A DNA stretch of 46,874 bases from Escherichia phage SusanneMuster_Bas79. The notes below the pieces were generated by a model that was not told the origin of the DNA, ran no database searches, and was given only the letters and a program-made list of their open reading frames with translations. The translations under genes were made by a program, and so were the position numbers. Of the stretch, positions 28,269 to 38,335 are shown one piece after another. The first letter of the stretch is position 1, and the number at the start of each line of letters is the position of its first letter. The stretch lies in sequence record PQ850629.1; one strand, written 5' to 3'.

Positions 28269-28269
<1 letters not shown>
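25327..28269 (+). CDS. tail tape measure protein
   Basis: 980 aa, long helical Ala/Gln/Lys-rich sequence, internal hydrophobic segments and a Thr/Ala low-complexity tract. Confidence 0.85.
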
Positions 28270-32991
<4,722 letters not shown>

Positions 32992-33030
32992 TACAATATA
33001 CATCAAATTCACAAAGGAGCATTTATTATA

Positions 33031-34938
33031 ATGACTACCACACCAACTAATAAACCAATTCCGTCTGAAGACCCGCGCGACCTGAAATTTAATGCCGGGA
33101 AAATCGACGAGGTGGTAACATCTAACGCGCATTACTACACCGACCGCTTCGGAGTTCGCCGGTTTACTATCGCCGGTTTCCAATATACAGCAGAAGAAGC
33201 TATCCGTAATTATGGCTATATCACGATGGACAGTTTTGAGGATGGGGCGACACTGACGTTGCCTAATCAGGTTCTGCGCTATGAGGCTACTGGCGAATAT
33301 TACCGCTGGGACGGTGAATTTCCTAAAACTGTTTCTGCCGGCTCAACACCTGAAGCATCTGGTGGTGTTGGTATTGGTGCATGGGTTAGTGTTGGTGATG
33401 CTTCATTGCGCAGTGATTTGGCCCTAAGCACTGGCGCAGGGTTAGTTGGGACAACATCCGGCAGGACCGTACAGGCAGAGTTTGACCATTTCAAAATAGG
33501 GTATATGACACCCGATGATTTCGGCGCGGTAGGTGATGGTGCCACCGACGACACCACGCCTTTGCAACAGGCTATTGACTATTGTTCAAGCAACGGTATC
33601 GCGTTAAGAATCCCCGCAAAATCTTATGTTTGGAATGGCGGTATTATAACTTCACCCATAACAATAATCGGTGACAGACGTCCAGATTACAATTTTAGCT
33701 CCAATTCTATGTCTAACGGGTCTGTCATAATTGGCAATTTAAGATTTTCCGCAAGCCAGGTGATTATTAAGTCACTTGGTGTGCGTAGGCCTACAGGCTC
33801 CCCCGGAGATTGTCTGGTGTTATCGACCGATAACTATGCTGGTGGGTCTTGTATTGTTCAAGATGTAGTTGCCGCGGGCCTTTCCGGTTCGGACACGTAC
33901 CACAGCGTTCTTGTTGAAGGCTACGATTCCGCGCATGTATCTCAAATAACTGGCGGTTATAATCTTTTTGGCCTCGCGATTAAGTCAAGAAACGTTGTTG
34001 CCAGAGGCGTAATAACCGTAAGCTGTGATACTGGCGTTATCATTAAATCTGATAGTGAGTTCAGCACGGCAAAAAATGTGGTGCTGGACGGGCACATTAA
34101 TGTCGGTAATGGTGTTTCTAGTCAAGGTGTTTGGATTTACAGCACAACCGCACAACTTGAGCGTATTACCTGCGCAAACTTACAAAGCATCGATTCCGCT
34201 ATACATATGCGGATTAAGTCCGAAAACGTAGCTAATGACGTGCAAATTGTTGGGGCAAATTATTCAGGATCTACTTATGCGGATGTGCTCGTCGAAGGCA
34301 CTTCGGCTGGCACGTTGAACAATGTTAGTTTAGATAGTATAACCGCAGTAAATAGCCAGAAATTTATGGCTGCAGGTTTCTGTGAACAACTGATGGTAAC
34401 AGGATTCTATGGGTCCCTGAAACCCGGCGCTCCCGCCGATACTGCGTTTGAGGTTAGCGCCGCCGTAGGGCTTTTTAGCGGGTCAAATATCCAACTAGTC
34501 CGTCAATACAGCAGTGACCTAATGACAATGAATCTCGGTAACAGTTATCTTAATAATAGATTATCATCTGTTAAGGCGAAAGTAATAGGAAACGGCAAAC
34601 CTAGGCCTGGGTATAAAGAACAGAATCTTAGCGGCGCTGCGGCTACAATGATTGTTGGCGACAGTTTGGGGCCCTCTGGGGTTGTGTCTGTCACCGCGAT
34701 ATCCTCCGGCAGTTCATTCAGCAGTATTGCTATTAATGACGACTATGGTCAGCCGGTTAAGCCAGGTTTTCTTCTAATAATCCGAAACGCATCCGCTATC
34801 TCGTTCGTTATGAACCATAATCCAGGGTCTGGTGGAATCGCAAATAACGGGGCGGTTGGTAAGACCATTGCGGACGGAGACACTATAATGTACGTTTTTG
34901 ACGGGACGAATTGGCGTCAAACTCCATCTATAGCTTAA
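33031..34938 (+). CDS. tailspike / receptor-binding protein with parallel beta-helix (pectate-lyase-like) domain
   Basis: 635 aa; N-terminal anchor-like segment, then Gly/Ser/Asn/Val-rich repetitive sequence typical of right-handed beta-helix depolymerases; good RBS AAAGGAGC. Confidence 0.65.
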   Translation: MTTTPTNKPIPSEDPRDLKFNAGKIDEVVTSNAHYYTDRFGVRRFTIAGFQYTAEEAIRNYGYITMDSFEDGATLTLPNQVLRYEATGEYYRWDGEFPKTVSAGSTPEASGGVGIGAWVSVGDASLRSDLALSTGAGLVGTTSGRTVQAEFDHFKIGYMTPDDFGAVGDGATDDTTPLQQAIDYCSSNGIALRIPAKSYVWNGGIITSPITIIGDRRPDYNFSSNSMSNGSVIIGNLRFSASQVIIKSLGVRRPTGSPGDCLVLSTDNYAGGSCIVQDVVAAGLSGSDTYHSVLVEGYDSAHVSQITGGYNLFGLAIKSRNVVARGVITVSCDTGVIIKSDSEFSTAKNVVLDGHINVGNGVSSQGVWIYSTTAQLERITCANLQSIDSAIHMRIKSENVANDVQIVGANYSGSTYADVLVEGTSAGTLNNVSLDSITAVNSQKFMAAGFCEQLMVTGFYGSLKPGAPADTAFEVSAAVGLFSGSNIQLVRQYSSDLMTMNLGNSYLNNRLSSVKAKVIGNGKPRPGYKEQNLSGAAATMIVGDSLGPSGVVSVTAISSGSSFSSIAINDDYGQPVKPGFLLIIRNASAISFVMNHNPGSGGIANNGAVGKTIADGDTIMYVFDGTNWRQTPSIA

Positions 34939-34940
34939 AA

Positions 34941-34968
34941 CTAAGGCCCCGAAAGGGGCCTTTTATCT
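34941..34968. terminator. bidirectional rho-independent terminator
   Basis: stem GGCCCC / GGGGCC with GAAA loop flanked by A- and T-tracts; between convergent tailspike and ssb. Confidence 0.65.
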
Positions 34969-34979
34969 TTGGTCACCAT

Positions 34980-35465
34980 TTAGAAGGGTATTGAATCATC
35001 GAAGTCTATCGGATGCTCATTGCCTCCTTGTATGCTTTGTTGTTTTTGCTGTTGTTGTTGCTGTTGCGATTGTTGGCCTGATTGCTGTCGTGGTTGCTGC
35101 TGACTGGAATCATCACGTTTACCACCAAGCATCTGCATAACGCCGCCCACCTGTGGAATAACAATCTCAGTGGTGTATCGGTCTACGCCATTGCTGTCAG
35201 TCCACTTACGAGTGCGTAGCTGACCTTCGATATAAACCTGCGATCCTTTGCGAAGGTATTCTCCTGCAACTTCTGCAAGTTTCCCGAAGATGACAACGCG
35301 ATGCCATTCAGTTTGCTCTTTCTTTTCTCCTGTTTGCTTGTCCTTCCACTGTTCAGATGTTGCAACAGAAAGATTGGCAATTGCAGAGCCTGATGCTGAA
35401 TATTTAACTTCAGGGTCGTTGCCGAGAGTGCCGACAATAATTACTTTATTTACGCCGCGTGCCAT
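34980..35465 (-). CDS. ssb: single-stranded DNA-binding protein
   Basis: [20 protein letters not shown]...[14 protein letters not shown]-fold signature, Gln-rich tail and C-terminal DFDDSIPF acidic tip. Confidence 0.9.
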
Positions 35466-35468
35466 TTA

Positions 35469-36524
35469 TTAAAATCCTTCAATTGGAGTTGGTTTGTGTT
35501 CTGTTTTTTCTTCCTGCGGTTCTGGCTGCTGTGGTTGCGGTTTAGCCAGTTTTGCAGGATTGAAATTATCCTGCGGAGTTATTACCACAGGAGATAATTG
35601 CTCATCATTGATAAAAGACTCAATGCGATCATATTCAGCGGCAGAAGCAGCCAGAGAAGGCCAGATTGCGCGAATTTTATCTTTCAGGTTATCAGGTATT
35701 GATTTTGCTTCTTCCTTCAGGCCTTCCATGCCTTTTGCTGCAGAAAGCTGAAGTCTTGAGCGCCATGACTCAAACTCTTCGTCAACTTTAACGCCAGAGT
35801 CAACCCATTTGATGAGTCCGCGACCATGCGCCTCTCCAATATATCCATGGCGAACACTTTCACGACCAGACTCAAAGAATATTGGGCGTAGTTCTTCTGG
35901 TAATTTTGTGAACTCCTGAATTTTTCCTCCATCGTGCATCATCATGCTCACGGTCATCTCGAACATGAAATCTTTCTCGCACACTGGTTGCAACCCAAGT
36001 GATACAGGTTCCTTCGGGTTTGCGAAATCAGTTTTCTGACGTGCGCGAAGGCAGACAATGATATGCATATTGCTTTGTAGCATGGCATTCATGAACTTCT
36101 TGTGTTCAGCTTTGGCGCGCTTCCAGTCAGCCATCTTTTTACCGTTAAGCAGCGGCTTTTCAGCAATCTCCGTGCAACTGCCTTCACCTTCCCATTCATG
36201 CGAACCTGAATCAATAACAAGAACCTTAACGCCGGCAGCCTGAAACTCTTCAATGGCCTGACGGTAACGGGCCGGGCTGAATGGAGCATACATATCAGCG
36301 TGCAGGAATTTGCCATCAAGGATGTTTGAGTACAGGCGACCGCGACCGTTTTCAGTATCAAGGAATCCGATTTCTTCTGGTGAATCAACCATCCCGCGAG
36401 CCAGCTTAAGTGCGCTATATGTTTTGCCGCTACCTGACTGGCCTGAAATGCCGATGACCACGCGAGAACCTGAACGCTCTGCTGGTTTAATATTGAGAAT
36501 ACCCATTTGCATTACCTCACTCAA
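35469..36524 (-). CDS. RecA-like ATPase (Sak4-like recombination protein)
   Basis: Walker A GISGQSGSGKT near N-terminus; next to SSB and exonuclease. Confidence 0.6.
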   Translation of the reverse strand: MSEVMQMGILNIKPAERSGSRVVIGISGQSGSGKTYSALKLARGMVDSPEEIGFLDTENGRGRLYSNILDGKFLHADMYAPFSPARYRQAIEEFQAAGVKVLVIDSGSHEWEGEGSCTEIAEKPLLNGKKMADWKRAKAEHKKFMNAMLQSNMHIIVCLRARQKTDFANPKEPVSLGLQPVCEKDFMFEMTVSMMMHDGGKIQEFTKLPEELRPIFFESGRESVRHGYIGEAHGRGLIKWVDSGVKVDEEFESWRSRLQLSAAKGMEGLKEEAKSIPDNLKDKIRAIWPSLAASAAEYDRIESFINDEQLSPVVITPQDNFNPAKLAKPQPQQPEPQEEKTEHKPTPIEGF

Positions 36525-36714
36525 ATTCTACAAAATCACCACCAACCATTTCGACGATAATGAATCCAGATTCATCATCATATGTTGCCTGCCATATAGC
36601 TCCAGTTTCGTCGCTTATTTTAAAGGTACCACCAAAAAAGTCAGCGCTATACCACTCATCTTCTTTAAATCTTTTGCTTGTTGAGCTTGCACAAAATAAT
36701 TTCATTTGCATCAC
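36517..36714 (-). CDS. hypothetical protein (65 aa)
   Basis: ORF overlapping neighbours in replication module. Confidence 0.35.
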   Translation of the reverse strand: MMQMKLFCASSTSKRFKEDEWYSADFFGGTFKISDETGAIWQATYDDESGFIIVEMVGGDFVEFE

Positions 36715-36722
36715 CTCACTAA

Positions 36723-37667
36723 TTATAAATTAAACTGTTTTTTGAACCATTCAGGCGTTTCCATTTCTATGACAGGATTACCCATTGAATAACCGGGCCA
36801 CGAATTGGCTTTTTTGCACGCCTTGTAAATTTCCATAGCGCCATGCAACTGAATTCGACCGATGCGTAATTGCTCTTCAGTCAAGCGAATTAACGCAGGA
36901 ATAAATGGTGCTTTCTTTTCCTGAACGAGAAGATTAACAGAGCGTGGCGCATGACCATATGCCGCAACAAACATGTCGTGCTGCATCGCCATTTTCATAA
37001 AGTACCCAAGTCTCGCAGCATGACGGAAAAACTCTTCTGGCTTGGCGCTCACCGCTGTTTTGTAGTCGATGATGTCGCCACCTTTGGTAAGGCAGTCAAA
37101 GCGAACTTTTGCCTTCTCTCCGTTAAGTTCACCTAGAATTGACACTTCAGCATAAGCACCAGCGAGAAGACTGCTGTAATAGCTGTTTGCGTGGATTACA
37201 GCACGCATTTGCTGAATAGCGTCATAATCACCACCTTCCAGCATTTGCTTTCCTACAGCAGCTTTTTCAGCCTCTTCACGGATGACATCGTAAATTTTCA
37301 CTGGCTCGCCAGTCGCCTGGATGATTTTGATCACCTCAGCTTTCGACTTTCCTGAAAGTCCTTTGATGCCTCGTTCTTTTGCCCATGAGTTCATATCACT
37401 TACAGTAACAAGCAGGTCATCACCAAAATCTTCTTTGGTTGGCATTCGTGCATATTCAGCATCAAAACGCTCTGGTTCAAGCAACGCAGTATGGCTACCT
37501 GTACCGAATATAAGAGCTTTTGATTGCTCATCCTCTTCGTCTTTGTATCGCCATGCTGCTGGGCATCTGTCAAGTATATTCCATAATCCAGAGCCATTAA
37601 TATGCTCTGTGTCTGCGTGGTAATCTTCATTACTGAGTTCATTATTGAAATAGACTTTCATCATCAC
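36723..37667 (-). CDS. PD-(D/E)XK family exonuclease (recombination exonuclease)
   Basis: 314 aa; DCLTKGGDIIDYKT resembles the D...D/E-x-K nuclease core; partnered with ATPase and SSB. Confidence 0.6.
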   Translation of the reverse strand: MMMKVYFNNELSNEDYHADTEHINGSGLWNILDRCPAAWRYKDEEDEQSKALIFGTGSHTALLEPERFDAEYARMPTKEDFGDDLLVTVSDMNSWAKERGIKGLSGKSKAEVIKIIQATGEPVKIYDVIREEAEKAAVGKQMLEGGDYDAIQQMRAVIHANSYYSSLLAGAYAEVSILGELNGEKAKVRFDCLTKGGDIIDYKTAVSAKPEEFFRHAARLGYFMKMAMQHDMFVAAYGHAPRSVNLLVQEKKAPFIPALIRLTEEQLRIGRIQLHGAMEIYKACKKANSWPGYSMGNPVIEMETPEWFKKQFNL

Positions 37668-38290
37668 TCTCCGTGGTTACAGAATTCTTTATGCATCTTT
37701 TCTCTAAACTTCATGACAGCAACTCTTGCTTTATCAATATCATGAAATAATCCAATGTGGTATTTAATACCATTAACCGTACATCTGGCATGCCATTTTT
37801 TGCATTGTTTGTTCCAGTAAACACCTTTCACTCCAGATGTATTATTTTTTTGCTTTTTACGATTAAACTGATTCTGTTCATTGCTTGCTATTCTTAAGTT
37901 ATCAATCCTGTTGTCATCTCTAATGCCATTAATGTGATCAATATTATCTTCTTGCCAATAACCATAACAAATCAACCACGCGAGTATGTGAGCATAATAC
38001 CTATTATTATTTATGCTTATTTCTATGTAACCGTTATCTTTTTTGCAGCCCGCCAAATCTCCATTGTTTACGCAACCAACAGTCTTGTTCCATGCAAACA
38101 AACCAGTTACCAGATTGTAAGTTAAGTTATCTAAAACAACATTACGAGGTATTCTTTTTCTTCCACCTATGGTGTTTGACCCTGCATTTCCCTGAGCAAA
38201 ATCTTGCTTTTGCAGTTCCGATAAACTCATTTCCGCAAACCTCGCACTTCTTAACGGTGATAGCCATTTCTTAACCTCTATTGTAATCAT
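37664..38290 (-). CDS. HNH homing endonuclease with AP2-like DNA-binding domain
   Basis: YAHILAW...DHINGIRDDNRIDNLR (HNH) then GVKGVYWNKQCKKWHARCTVNG (AP2-like); AT-rich gene. Confidence 0.65.
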   Translation of the reverse strand: MITIEVKKWLSPLRSARFAEMSLSELQKQDFAQGNAGSNTIGGRKRIPRNVVLDNLTYNLVTGLFAWNKTVGCVNNGDLAGCKKDNGYIEISINNNRYYAHILAWLICYGYWQEDNIDHINGIRDDNRIDNLRIASNEQNQFNRKKQKNNTSGVKGVYWNKQCKKWHARCTVNGIKYHIGLFHDIDKARVAVMKFREKMHKEFCNHGE

Positions 38291-38335
38291 TTACCGTTAC
38301 ATTGCAAGTAACTTTTATTTGTTACTAACAATACA

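What the first reader, a model, noticed from the sequence alone, without database searches (positions are those of the whole stretch)
33031..34938. Tailspike with beta-helix depolymerase-like body and a compositional shift suggesting a swapped receptor-binding module
The N-terminal roughly 130 residues look like a conserved virion-anchoring domain, while the remainder is Gly/Ser/Asn/Val-rich repetitive sequence typical of right-handed parallel beta-helix (pectate-lyase-like) polysaccharide depolymerases. The DNA of the downstream portion is visibly more AT-rich than neighbouring tail genes, consistent with horizontal acquisition. The enzymatic specificity determines host range.
Basis: partly seen in the sequence, partly recalled or inferred. 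Interest (0 to 1): 0.45.

Follow-up and report, generated by a model that had tools for sequence, protein, structure and literature searches.

The report
Modular O16-antigen tailspike, already published
This gene encodes the tailspike with which a small E. coli siphophage (almost certainly BASEL phage Bas79) recognises, and probably cuts, the O16 O-antigen; its receptor-binding body has indeed been swapped between phage genera, but this is shown by comparing genomes, not by base composition, and it is already in the literature.

Summary
The ORF at 33031..34938 (+, 635 aa) is real and is a tailspike. Its parts are a Skatevirus-type N-terminal anchor (aa 1-116), a conserved linker or hinge (aa 117-152), a right-handed beta-helix body (aa ~160-545) and a C-terminal beta-sandwich (aa 551-629).

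The claimed AT-rich shift is not there. The body has GC 0.459-0.465 against 0.467 for the whole window (36th-45th percentile). GC3 does not change at the domain junction (0.434 vs 0.422, z = 0.26).

The module swap is nevertheless real:
- Skatevirus relatives are collinear at ~87% nt identity up to 33419/33485 and again from 34935/34982.
- In between, the body (33487-34935) is 96-99.8% identical to the tailspike of Kagunavirus Bas70, whose backbone shares no DNA similarity in the flanking tail-hub and replication genes compared.
- The cassette is flanked by a conserved linker and by a conserved stop codon plus terminator.

Window length and GC match BASEL phage Bas79 (PQ850629). Humolli et al. 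[quoted passage not shown] The anchoring mode was solved in Shigella phage Sf11 (PDB 9OCC). Enzymatic cleavage is still only inferred.

Verdict: correct interpretation, wrong supporting evidence, already known, low interest.

The parts
33014..33020 (+). Ribosome-binding site AAAGGAG, 10 nt upstream of the ATG. Only 39 nt separate it from the J-like tail hub gene, with no terminator between, so the gene is probably co-transcribed with the tail genes.
   Evidence: Sequence read directly; no terminator-like site upstream in the scan.
33031..34938 (+). Tailspike gene, 635 aa plus stop codon.
   Evidence: ORF list. 98.9-99.1% nt identical to the 'tail fiber protein' genes of Bas77, Bas78 and Bas80. 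PHROG tail fiber and tailspike families.
33031..33210 (+). aa 1-60: genus-specific N-terminal adaptor. By homology with Sf11 gp13 residues 4-59 it forms a helical bundle with an adaptor helix of the distal tail protein (DTP). The contact residues R16 and K19 are conserved.
   Evidence: phmmer hit to 9occ_G, E 4e-73 over aa 1-154. Sf11 cryo-EM description (PMC12724387). R16/K19 checked. aa 1-50 are only 18% identical to Kagunavirus Bas70 but 88-92% to Skatevirus Bas81 and ASO78B.
33217..33399 (+). aa 63-123: Tail_spike_N beta domain (PF18668), shared with CBA120 TSP1/3/4 and many other tailspikes.
   Evidence: Pfam 74.1 bits vs cut-off 25. PDB sequence hits 4oj5, 5w6h, 6nw9 and others.
33379..33486 (+). 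aa 117-152: conserved linker or hinge (GAWVSVGDASLRSDLALSTGAGLVGTTSGRTVQAEFD). It is the 5' boundary of the exchangeable RBD cassette and the probable 5' homology arm for recombination.
   Evidence: Shared at 88-100% nt with Kagunavirus Bas75 and 91-92% with Skatevirus Bas81, while the sequence downstream is unrelated. 94-97% aa identity in Bas81, Bas82 (Nonanavirus) and Bas105 (podovirus Kayfunavirus), against 19-83% in the flanking segments. pLDDT <50 at aa 124-141. Lies next to the Sf11 hinge, which is near gp13 residue 162, about residue 159 here.
33487..34935 (+). aa 153-635: receptor-binding cassette, called 'type A' here (my label). It starts at HFKIGYMTPDDFGAVGDGATDDT, the N-terminal cap motif of the beta-helix.
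   Evidence: 96.3-99.8% nt identical to Kagunavirus Bas70, unrelated to Bas81, Bas75 and ASO78B. Bas70-73 and DUEC01 match nt 349-1908 of the gene at 96-97%.
33508..34665 (+). aa ~160-545: right-handed parallel beta-helix, the putative O16 O-antigen binding and cleavage domain. The PF12708 match covers aa 162-350.
33808..34053 (+). Candidate catalytic acids: D260 (33808-33810), E296 (33916-33918, within the invariant E-G-Y motif) and D341 (34051-34053).
   Evidence: The only acidic residues within the beta-helix proper that are invariant across 18 homologues, down to 31% identity; D174 in the N-cap motif is also invariant. Their catalytic role is inferred. No solved relative aligns in this region.
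34681..34917 (+). aa 551-629: C-terminal beta-sandwich domain (Phage_depo_C, PF25692).
   Evidence: Pfam 30.2 bits vs cut-off 25. Beta strands in the model.
34935..34968 (.). Stop codon plus intrinsic terminator between the convergent tailspike and SSB genes (hairpin 34943-34962, AAGGCCCC-GAAA-GGGGCCTT, then TTAT). It is the conserved 3' boundary of the cassette and the probable 3' homology arm.
   Evidence: Terminator scan. RNA fold -17.4 kcal/mol, z = -2.6. The sequence is shared by Skatevirus Bas81 (94%) and Kagunavirus Bas70 (88%) and Bas75 (89% by blastn), although their upstream RBDs differ.
28269..29642 (+). Distal tail protein (DTP, 457 aa), the docking partner of the tailspike. Its adaptor helix lies around aa 129-152 (28653-28724). 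A ~300-aa C-terminal appendage (28731-29642) has no known function.
   Evidence: Full-length match to Sf11 gp17 (9occ_C, E 4e-201). The contact residues E129, E136, E147 and E152 are conserved. Sf11 structure paper.

Best explanation
The gene encodes the single receptor-binding tailspike of a Skatevirus-type siphophage, very probably BASEL phage Bas79 SusanneMuster. It has three modules.

1. aa 1-~60 is a genus-specific adaptor. By homology with Shigella phage Sf11 gp13, three such helices bundle with an adaptor helix of the distal tail protein. This would give six trimers (18 copies) around the tail tip.
2. aa ~61-152 is a widely shared Tail_spike_N domain followed by a highly conserved, flexible linker or hinge.
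3. aa 153-635 is a beta-helix plus C-terminal beta-sandwich receptor-binding domain (RBD). It binds the O16 O-antigen of E. coli and most likely cleaves it as a glycoside hydrolase, so the phage can work its way down to the outer membrane.

The third module is a mobile cassette. It sits between a conserved linker-coding stretch (33379-33486) and a conserved stop codon plus terminator (34935-34968). Nearly identical copies occur in Kagunavirus phages whose genomes share no DNA similarity in the flanking tail-hub and replication genes compared. It was therefore exchanged recently, most simply by homologous recombination in these two flanks.

Shown: the ORF, the domain architecture, the fold, the mosaic pattern and its breakpoints, and (from published data) strict O16 dependence of the phage.
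Inferred: trimer number and docking (from Sf11), enzymatic hydrolysis and the catalytic residues D260/E296/D341, recombination in the flanks, and the direction of transfer.
For: Identity of the window:
- 98-99% nt identical to Bas77, Bas78 and Bas80.
- Length 46,874 bp and GC 0.467 equal those listed for Bas79, PQ850629 (S2 Table of PMC11990801; GC).

Domains and fold:
- PF18668, PF12708 and PF25692 all score above their Pfam cut-offs.
- AlphaFold model with pLDDT 84 shows a long beta-helix.

Anchor:
- aa 1-154 match Sf11 gp13 at E 4e-73.
- The window's DTP matches Sf11 gp17 at E 4e-201.
- The published salt-bridge residues are conserved on both partners.

Mosaic:
- Bas81 is collinear at 87.7% up to 33485 and again from 34935. 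ASO78B is collinear to 33419 and from 34982. Bas70 matches 33379-34968 at 96.9%.
- Segment identities to Bas70 are 96.3-99.8% inside the RBD and 38-54% in the anchor.
- Alignments place the junctions at 33486/33487 and at the stop codon and terminator.
- About 100 of the 120 best database hits share only the N-terminal 20-41% of the protein, joined to other C-terminal domains such as SGNH, NosD or peptidase S74.

Host range (S1 Data of PMC11990801):
- Bas79 plates at 1e8-1e9 pfu on the O16-restored host and gives no plaques on wbbL(-).
- Lysis of three O16 clinical strains (ST131/ST144/ST8281) follows RBD type rather than genus. Type A (Kagunavirus Bas70-73, Skatevirus Bas77-80) gives 0/0/1, with 1/0/1 in single replicates of Bas70, Bas71 and apparently Bas77. 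Type B gives 1/0/1 (Bas74-76) or 1/1/1 (Bas81).

Catalysis: within the beta-helix proper, D260, E296 and D341 are the only acidic residues invariant across homologues down to 31% identity.
Against: - No biochemical evidence of cleavage exists for this protein or its close relatives. The BASEL paper calls the tailspikes 'enzymatic' from the fold; the words halo and hydrolase do not occur in it.
- Sequence profiles reach solved enzymes only through the N-terminal cap motif, so the catalytic residues could not be transferred by homology.
- The structure was predicted as a monomer. Inter-subunit active sites (as in Sf6) and trimerisation were not tested.
- The left junction is complex. In 33440-33486 the window is 100% identical to Bas75 and only 66% to Bas70. 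The history therefore involves more than one crossover, and the donor cannot be named.
- Composition gives no sign of foreign origin in this genome.
Confidence: 0.8

Rival explanations
1. The tailspike only binds. The beta-helix acts as a lectin-like O16 receptor-binding domain without cleaving the glycan.
Against: Three acidic residues on consecutive rungs (D260, E296, D341) are invariant down to 31% identity, which is typical of active-site conservation. From my own knowledge, O-antigen-specific tailspikes of this architecture that have been tested (P22, Sf6, HK620, CBA120 TSP2-4, Det7, 9NA) are endoglycosidases. A siphophage with O-antigen as its only receptor has to get through a thick glycan layer.
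Confidence: 0.12
2. The protein modifies rather than depolymerises the O-antigen, for example as a deacetylase or esterase like G7C gp63.1, or it acts as a polysaccharide lyase.
Against: This protein has no SGNH or lipase domain. The G7C match covers only the N-terminal domain (aa 57-132). From my own knowledge, beta-elimination needs a uronic acid, and the O16 repeat (Galf, Glc, Rha, GlcNAc, with a Glc side chain) has none. That structure was not retrieved here.
Confidence: 0.04
3. The RBD is native to this Skatevirus lineage, or to a donor of similar ~46% GC, and the Kagunaviruses are the recipients. On this reading the window's gene is the source of the swap, not its product.
For: The RBD's GC (0.459) and GC3 (0.421) fit this genome (mean GC 0.467; gene GC3 0.474 +/- 0.066). 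They are far below the Kagunavirus backbone (GC 0.50-0.55, GC3 0.53-0.62).
Against: RBDs of other types are AT-rich in every backbone examined: ASO78B RBD GC 0.406, Bas81 0.446, Bas75 0.457. Low GC may therefore be a general property of these domains or of a common pool, and it does not show direction. Other Skatevirus relatives carry unrelated RBDs at the same site, so this lineage too acquired its RBD at some point.
Confidence: 0.35
4. The tailspike is not the only host-recognition element. The C-terminal appendage of the distal tail protein, also shared with Kagunaviruses, or the J-like hub, contributes a second receptor interaction.
For: The window's DTP carries a ~300-aa appendage that is absent from Skatevirus Bas81 and ASO78B. 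It is 88-95% nt identical to that of E. coli Kagunaviruses. aa 217-425 resemble the RcGTA head-spike fibre Rcc01080 (E 1.8e-7). The Sf11 paper states that its function is unknown.
Against: The appendage occurs in Kagunaviruses with both RBD types and in relatives from other E. coli hosts, so it does not track O16 specificity. Bas81 lacks it and still infects O16 strains. Lysis range follows RBD type.
Confidence: 0.25

Closest known systems
Tailspikes of BASEL phages Bas77, Bas78 and Bas80 (Skatevirus) and Bas70-73 (Kagunavirus), described in Humolli et al., PLoS Biol 2025 (PMC11990801)
   Same: Full length is 98.9-99.1% nt identical to Bas77, Bas78 and Bas80. The RBD (gene nt 349-1908) is 96-97% identical to Bas70-73 and DUEC01. 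Same locus directly after the J-like hub gene. O16 O-antigen dependence, the pectin-lyase-like RBD on variable anchors and horizontal exchange are all published.
   Different: Nothing of substance; the window is very probably the sister isolate Bas79. This analysis adds the exact breakpoints, the conserved flanks, the composition test and the candidate catalytic residues.
Shigella phage Sf11 tailspike gp13 docked on distal tail protein gp17 (PDB 9OCC; Subramanian et al., J Virol 2025, PMC12724387)
   Same: aa 1-154 align with gp13 1-157 (E 4e-73). The DTP is a full-length homologue (E 4e-201). Contact residues R16 and K19 (spike) and E129, E136, E147 and E152 (DTP) are conserved. A hinge follows the anchor.
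   Different: The RBD is unrelated. Sf11 carries an Sf6/P22-like domain for the S. flexneri O-antigen; this protein carries the O16 'type A' domain. The middle of the DTP appendage (aa ~215-400) has also diverged.
CBA120 tailspikes TSP1 and TSP3 (PDB 4OJ5, 6NW9, 5W6F)
   Same: Shared Tail_spike_N domain (E 1e-24 and 5e-18), followed by a beta-helix. They are the best full-length Foldseek matches (E ~1e-11).
   Different: 12-18% identity. Myovirus branched-spike context with a different upstream attachment domain. From my own knowledge, they target different O-antigens.
Beta-helix carbohydrate enzymes: AlgE4 mannuronan C5-epimerase A-module (2PYG), GH87 alpha-1,3-glucanase (7C7D), GH28 polygalacturonases (1BHE, 8IKX)
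   Different: Only the cap motif is detectable by sequence. Active-site regions do not align. Their substrates are uronic-acid polymers or glucans, unlike O16.
P22, Sf6, HK620, 9NA and Det7 tailspike endoglycosidases
   Different: No detectable sequence similarity in the RBD. Different anchor. Whether the active site lies within or between subunits is unknown here.

Membership tests
Phage tailspikes with the Tail_spike_N anchor (PF18668) | Match to PF18668 above the curated cut-off, near the N-terminus | tested here: met
   74.1 bits vs cut-off 25, aa 63-123.
Pectin-lyase-like right-handed parallel beta-helix superfamily (PF12708 / IPR011050) | Sequence match to a beta-helix family above its cut-off | tested here: met
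   PF12708, 30.1 bits vs cut-off 27, aa 162-350. N-cap motif shared with GH55, Phi92 gp150 and AlgE.
Pectin-lyase-like right-handed parallel beta-helix superfamily (PF12708 / IPR011050) | Three-dimensional beta-helix fold | tested here: met
Sf11 gp13-type tailspike docked on the DTP | Homologous N-terminal helix with the conserved contact residues R16 and K19 | tested here: met
   E 4e-73 to 9occ_G over aa 1-154. R16 and K19 present.
Sf11 gp13-type tailspike docked on the DTP | Partner DTP with an adaptor helix carrying E129, E136, E147 and E152 | tested here: met
   The window's 28269-29642 product matches 9occ_C at E 4e-201. All four Glu residues are present.
Sf11 gp13-type tailspike docked on the DTP | Physical assembly of six trimers on the DTP ring | not testable with these tools
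   Needs cryo-EM of this virion or a multimer prediction. Known only for Sf11.
O16-specific 'type A' RBD of BASEL phages (Bas70-73, Bas77-80) | Near-identity of aa 153-635 to members of that group | tested here: met
   96.3-99.8% nt identity to Bas70 by segment and 98.7-100% to Bas77.
O16-specific 'type A' RBD of BASEL phages (Bas70-73, Bas77-80) | Phage depends on the O16 O-antigen | not testable with these tools
   Published for Bas79: no plaques on wbbL(-) (S1 Data of PMC11990801). Applying this to the window rests on its identification as Bas79.
O-antigen endoglycosidase (glycoside hydrolase) tailspikes | Pair or triad of catalytic carboxylates in the substrate groove | tested here: inconclusive
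   D260, E296 and D341 are invariant in 18 homologues.
O-antigen endoglycosidase (glycoside hydrolase) tailspikes | Demonstrated cleavage of the polysaccharide | not testable with these tools
   No assay is reported in the BASEL paper.
SGNH esterase / deacetylase tailspikes (G7C gp63.1 type) | SGNH or GDSL hydrolase domain | tested here: not met
   No such Pfam match down to E = 1. Similarity to 4qnl is limited to aa 57-132.
Horizontally acquired DNA recognised by composition | GC, GC3 or codon composition of the module deviates from the host genome and shifts at the junction | tested here: not met
   RBD GC 0.459 is at the 36th percentile. GC3 is 0.422 against 0.434 in the anchor (z = 0.26). 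23% of the window's ORFs have lower GC3.
Horizontally exchanged module recognised by mosaic similarity | High identity to an otherwise unrelated genome, confined to the module, while close relatives differ there | tested here: met

The most novel reading that the evidence does not exclude
The tail tip of this phage is a two-part chimera. Both the tailspike RBD and the ~300-aa C-terminal appendage of the distal tail protein are shared with Kagunaviruses at about 90-99% nt identity, while sister Skateviruses lack or replace them.

On this reading, the conserved 36-aa linker (94-97% identical across Skatevirus, Nonanavirus and the podovirus genus Kayfunavirus) and the conserved stop codon plus terminator act as universal homology arms. 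RBD cassettes would then circulate among unrelated virulent phages that share O16 hosts. The DTP appendage, distantly related to the RcGTA head-spike fibre, would be a second, glycan-binding host-recognition module that the published 'single receptor-binding protein' model overlooks. RBD-A itself would be the first member of an uncharacterised glycoside hydrolase family, with D260, E296 and D341 as catalytic residues.
Probability: 0.25. Interest if true: 0.4.

Novelty: already known. Interest (0 to 1): 0.14.

Why it matters
Tailspike RBDs set the host range of glycan-dependent phages and are the parts people swap when engineering phages for therapy or diagnostics.

This protein, its O16 specificity and the fact of horizontal exchange are already published for this phage group. 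The value here is confirmation and refinement:
- exact cassette boundaries (33487-34935), with conserved flanks that could serve as natural splice points for RBD grafting between Skatevirus and Kagunavirus;
- a caution that base composition fails to detect a very recent swap in this genome;
- three candidate catalytic residues for mutagenesis.

Tried and rejected
1. Compositional evidence for the swap. Sliding GC, segment GC and GC1/2/3, the GC3 distribution of 57 ORFs and a same-length window percentile all show no anomaly in this genome. Rejected as evidence here.
2. Sequence repetitiveness. Tandem Repeats Finder at minimum score 30 found nothing in the gene. The 'repeats' exist only as structural rungs.
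3. Transfer of catalytic residues by homology. phmmer and an RBD-only profile (alignment A4) against all PDB sequences align only the N-terminal cap motif. Not possible.
4. Geometry of D260, E296 and D341 in the model. Model coordinates are not exposed to the script environment.
5. Esterase or lyase readings. There is no SGNH domain. The lyase reading is rejected from my own knowledge of the O16 repeat, which I could not retrieve from the papers searched.
7. Promoter scan. Hits were no more frequent than in shuffled sequence (5 vs 5.1 expected), so no promoter is claimed.
8. Minus-strand and alternative-frame ORFs inside the gene (33300-33557 minus strand, 34025-34231 plus strand) were treated as chance ORFs, because the long ORF matches its homologues end to end.
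Full report
**What is at the coordinates**

A single ORF runs from 33031 to 34938 on the + strand (635 aa). It has an ATG start and an AAAGGAG ribosome-binding site 10 nt upstream. It begins 39 nt after the 829-aa J-like tail hub gene and converges on an SSB gene on the other strand. An intrinsic terminator lies between the tailspike and SSB genes: hairpin 34943-34962 followed by a T-rich tail, -17.4 kcal/mol, z = -2.6.

**Where the window comes from**

The gene is 98.9-99.1% nt identical to the 'tail fiber protein' genes of Escherichia phages Bas77, Bas78 and Bas80. The first 25 kb of the window are 98.4% identical to Bas77 over 95% of their length. These phages belong to the Skatevirus cluster of the completed BASEL collection (PMC11990801). 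That paper's S2 Table lists a fourth sister isolate, Bas79 SusanneMuster (PQ850629), with 46,874 bp and GC 0.467. These are exactly the window's length and GC. The window is therefore very probably the complete Bas79 genome.

**Check of the observation**

The anatomical part is right.
- Pfam finds Tail_spike_N (PF18668, aa 63-123, 74 bits vs cut-off 25), a pectate-lyase-like domain (PF12708, aa 162-350, 30.1 vs 27) and a phage depolymerase C-terminal beta-sandwich (PF25692, aa 551-629, 30.2 vs 25).
- The body is rich in Ser, Gly, Val, Ala and Ile.
- An AlphaFold2 model built on 27 homologues has mean pLDDT 84. It shows a long run of short strands from about aa 160 to 545 and a disordered stretch at aa 124-141.

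The compositional part is not right.
- The body has GC 0.459 (33487-34938) or 0.465 (from gene nt 349). The whole window has 0.467, the J-like gene 0.470 and the minor tail gene 0.469.
- Among same-length windows the body lies at the 36th-45th percentile.
- GC3 is 0.434 in the anchor and 0.422 in the body (z = 0.26). Against the J-like gene z = 1.90. 23% of the window's 57 long ORFs have lower GC3.
- There are no tandem repeats at the DNA level.
- The only real AT-rich island nearby is an HNH endonuclease gene (GC 0.352). It is a 670-nt insertion relative to phage ASO78B.

**The swap is real, on other evidence**

- blastn of 30001-36600 against Skatevirus relatives with other RBDs shows collinearity at ~87% up to 33485 (Bas81) or 33419 (ASO78B). 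Similarity resumes at 34935 (Bas81) or 34982 (ASO78B).
- The Kagunavirus Bas70 matches only 33379-34968, at 96.9%. Its genome is 43 kb with GC ~0.52. Within the ~13.5-kb locus compared, it otherwise matches the window only in the DTP appendage described below.
- By segment, identity to Bas70 is 38-54% in the anchor (no real alignment), 88.5% and 66% in the two halves of the linker, 96.3-99.8% across the RBD, 88% in the terminator, and nothing beyond.
- Alignments place the left junction at 33486/33487 (aa 152/153...QAEFD|HFKIGYMTPDDFGA...). The right junction is at the stop codon, followed by the shared terminator TAAAACTAAGGCCCCGAAAGGGGCCTTTT.
- The cassette is therefore 33487-34935.
- A second RBD type is shared in the same way between Skatevirus Bas81 and Kagunavirus Bas75 (82.5% nt). 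At least two cross-genus exchanges have used the same boundaries.
- The linker (aa 117-152) is 94-97% identical in Bas81, Nonanavirus Bas82 and the podovirus Kayfunavirus Bas105. The segments on either side are only 19-83% identical.
- About 100 of the 120 best database hits share only the N-terminal 20-41% of the protein, fused to many other C-terminal domains.
- For most Skatevirus relatives, similarity ends at gene nt 371-389 (aa ~124-130).

**Composition points the other way**

In Kagunavirus Bas70 the same RBD has GC 0.462 and GC3 0.424. Its anchor has GC3 0.531 and its neighbouring genes 0.53-0.62. The module looks foreign there, not here. This hints that the Kagunaviruses were the recipients. 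However, RBDs of other types are also AT-rich in every backbone examined, so the direction remains open.

**How it most likely works**

- The first 154 residues match Shigella phage Sf11 gp13 (PDB 9OCC, E 4e-73).
- In the Sf11 cryo-EM structure, residues 4-59 of three gp13 chains bundle with one adaptor helix of the distal tail protein gp17. This gives six trimers per tail tip, with a hinge near residue 162 (PMC12724387).
- The window encodes a full-length gp17 homologue at 28269-29642 (E 4e-201).
- The published contact residues are all conserved: R16 and K19 in the spike, and E129, E136, E147 and E152 in the DTP.
- The cassette junction (aa 152/153) lies just upstream of the position equivalent to this hinge.
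- Published plating data for Bas79 show 1e8-1e9 pfu on K-12 with restored O16 and no plaques on the wbbL(-) strain.
- Across the collection, lysis of three O16 clinical strains (ST131/ST144/ST8281) follows RBD type rather than genus. Type A (Kagunavirus Bas70-73 and Skatevirus Bas77-80) gives 0/0/1, with 1/0/1 in single replicates of Bas70, Bas71 and apparently Bas77. Type B gives 1/0/1 (Bas74-76) or 1/1/1 (Bas81).
- Cleavage of the O-antigen is inferred, not shown. The BASEL paper reports no enzyme assay.
- Sequence profiles reach solved enzymes only through the N-terminal cap motif DFGAxGDGxTDDT.
- Within the beta-helix proper, the only acidic residues invariant across 18 homologues down to 31% identity are D260, E296 (in an invariant E-G-Y motif) and D341. 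They sit 36 and 45 residues apart, roughly one to two rungs. I propose them as the catalytic site of a glycoside hydrolase.
- A lyase mechanism is unlikely because, from my own knowledge, O16 contains no uronic acid. An esterase is unlikely because there is no SGNH domain.

**Comparison with what is known**

The BASEL paper already states the main points:
- these Skatevirus and Kagunavirus isolates depend on O16;
- they carry a single tailspike directly downstream of the J-like gene;
- these tailspikes have a pectin-lyase-like RBD on variable anchor domains;
- their close relationship across very different phages reflects frequent horizontal exchange.

The anchoring mechanism is known from Sf11. 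This analysis adds only refinements: the breakpoints, the conserved flanks, the negative composition test, the reversed compositional signal in Kagunavirus, and candidate catalytic residues.

**Verdict**

The feature is an ordinary, already described member of a well-known kind. Interest is low.

**Seen in passing**

The distal tail protein is itself chimeric. Its first 155 aa are 95% identical to the 157-aa DTP of Bas81 and ASO78B, which end there. Its ~300-aa appendage is 88-95% nt identical to that of E. coli Kagunaviruses. The appendage distantly resembles the RcGTA head-spike fibre (E 1.8e-7). Its function is unknown.

Noticed in passing
window 28269-29642 (+), especially 28731-29642: The distal tail protein is chimeric. 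aa 1-155 are 95% identical to the complete 157-aa DTP of Skatevirus Bas81 and ASO78B. The extra ~300-aa C-terminal appendage is 88-95% nt identical to the DTP of E. coli Kagunaviruses (Bas70-76, XY2, 590B, NTEC3). aa 217-425 resemble the RcGTA head-spike fibre Rcc01080 (PDB 6tb9, E 1.8e-7). In this gene the window is only ~91% identical to Bas77, against 98-99% elsewhere. The Sf11 paper calls the appendage's function unknown. It may be a second, glycan-binding module.
   Followed up: partly
window 37662-38331 (gene 37664-38290, minus strand): An HNH endonuclease gene (HNH_3 plus a weak AP2-like domain) with GC 0.352 and GC3 0.325 is the real AT-rich island near the finding. It is a 670-nt insertion relative to phage ASO78B, between the exonuclease gene and the next gene, and it is present in Bas77. 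It is likely a homing endonuclease.
   Followed up: partly
L003:4457-6157 (Bas81) and L004:3109-4809 (Bas75): A second, unrelated O16 RBD ('type B') is shared between Skatevirus Bas81 and Kagunavirus Bas75 at 82.5% nt identity, with the same linker and terminator boundaries. This is a second cross-genus exchange. Yet Bas74-76 are blocked by GtrABS glucosylation of O16, whereas Bas81 was grown on the normal host, so fine specificity differs within type B.
   Followed up: partly
window 33379-33486 (aa 117-152) compared with L006 (Bas82) and L007 (Bas105): The 36-aa linker is 94-97% identical in a Nonanavirus (Bas82) and a podovirus (Kayfunavirus Bas105). Their RBDs are only ~29% identical to this one and their N-termini are unrelated. 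The linker is more conserved than either flanking module, across genera and morphotypes.
   Followed up: partly
L002:6109-7560 (Bas70 tailspike RBD): In the Kagunavirus the shared RBD is compositionally foreign: GC 0.462 and GC3 0.424, against GC3 0.53-0.62 in the neighbouring genes and 0.531 in its own anchor.
   Followed up: yes
window 35469-36524 (minus strand) and 36517-36714 (minus strand): Similarity of the Sak4-like / AAA recombination gene to ASO78B stops at 35564. ASO78B annotates a shorter 'recombinase' there, while Bas81 stays collinear to 36521. The small 65-aa ORF at 36517-36714 has no counterpart in Bas81 or ASO78B. This is further mosaicism in the replication and recombination module.
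   Followed up: no
window 30078-30593 (+): The minor tail protein carries an NlpC/P60 domain (E 8.5e-9), as in lambda gpK-like tail tip proteins. It overlaps the start of the J-like hub gene by ~90 nt. The relatives' annotation starts it later, at the position equivalent to 30123.
   Followed up: no
whole window: The window's length (46,874 bp) and GC (0.467) equal those listed for BASEL phage Bas79 SusanneMuster (PQ850629). That record does not appear among the phage-collection matches, whereas its sisters Bas77, Bas78, Bas80 and Bas81 do.
   Followed up: yes
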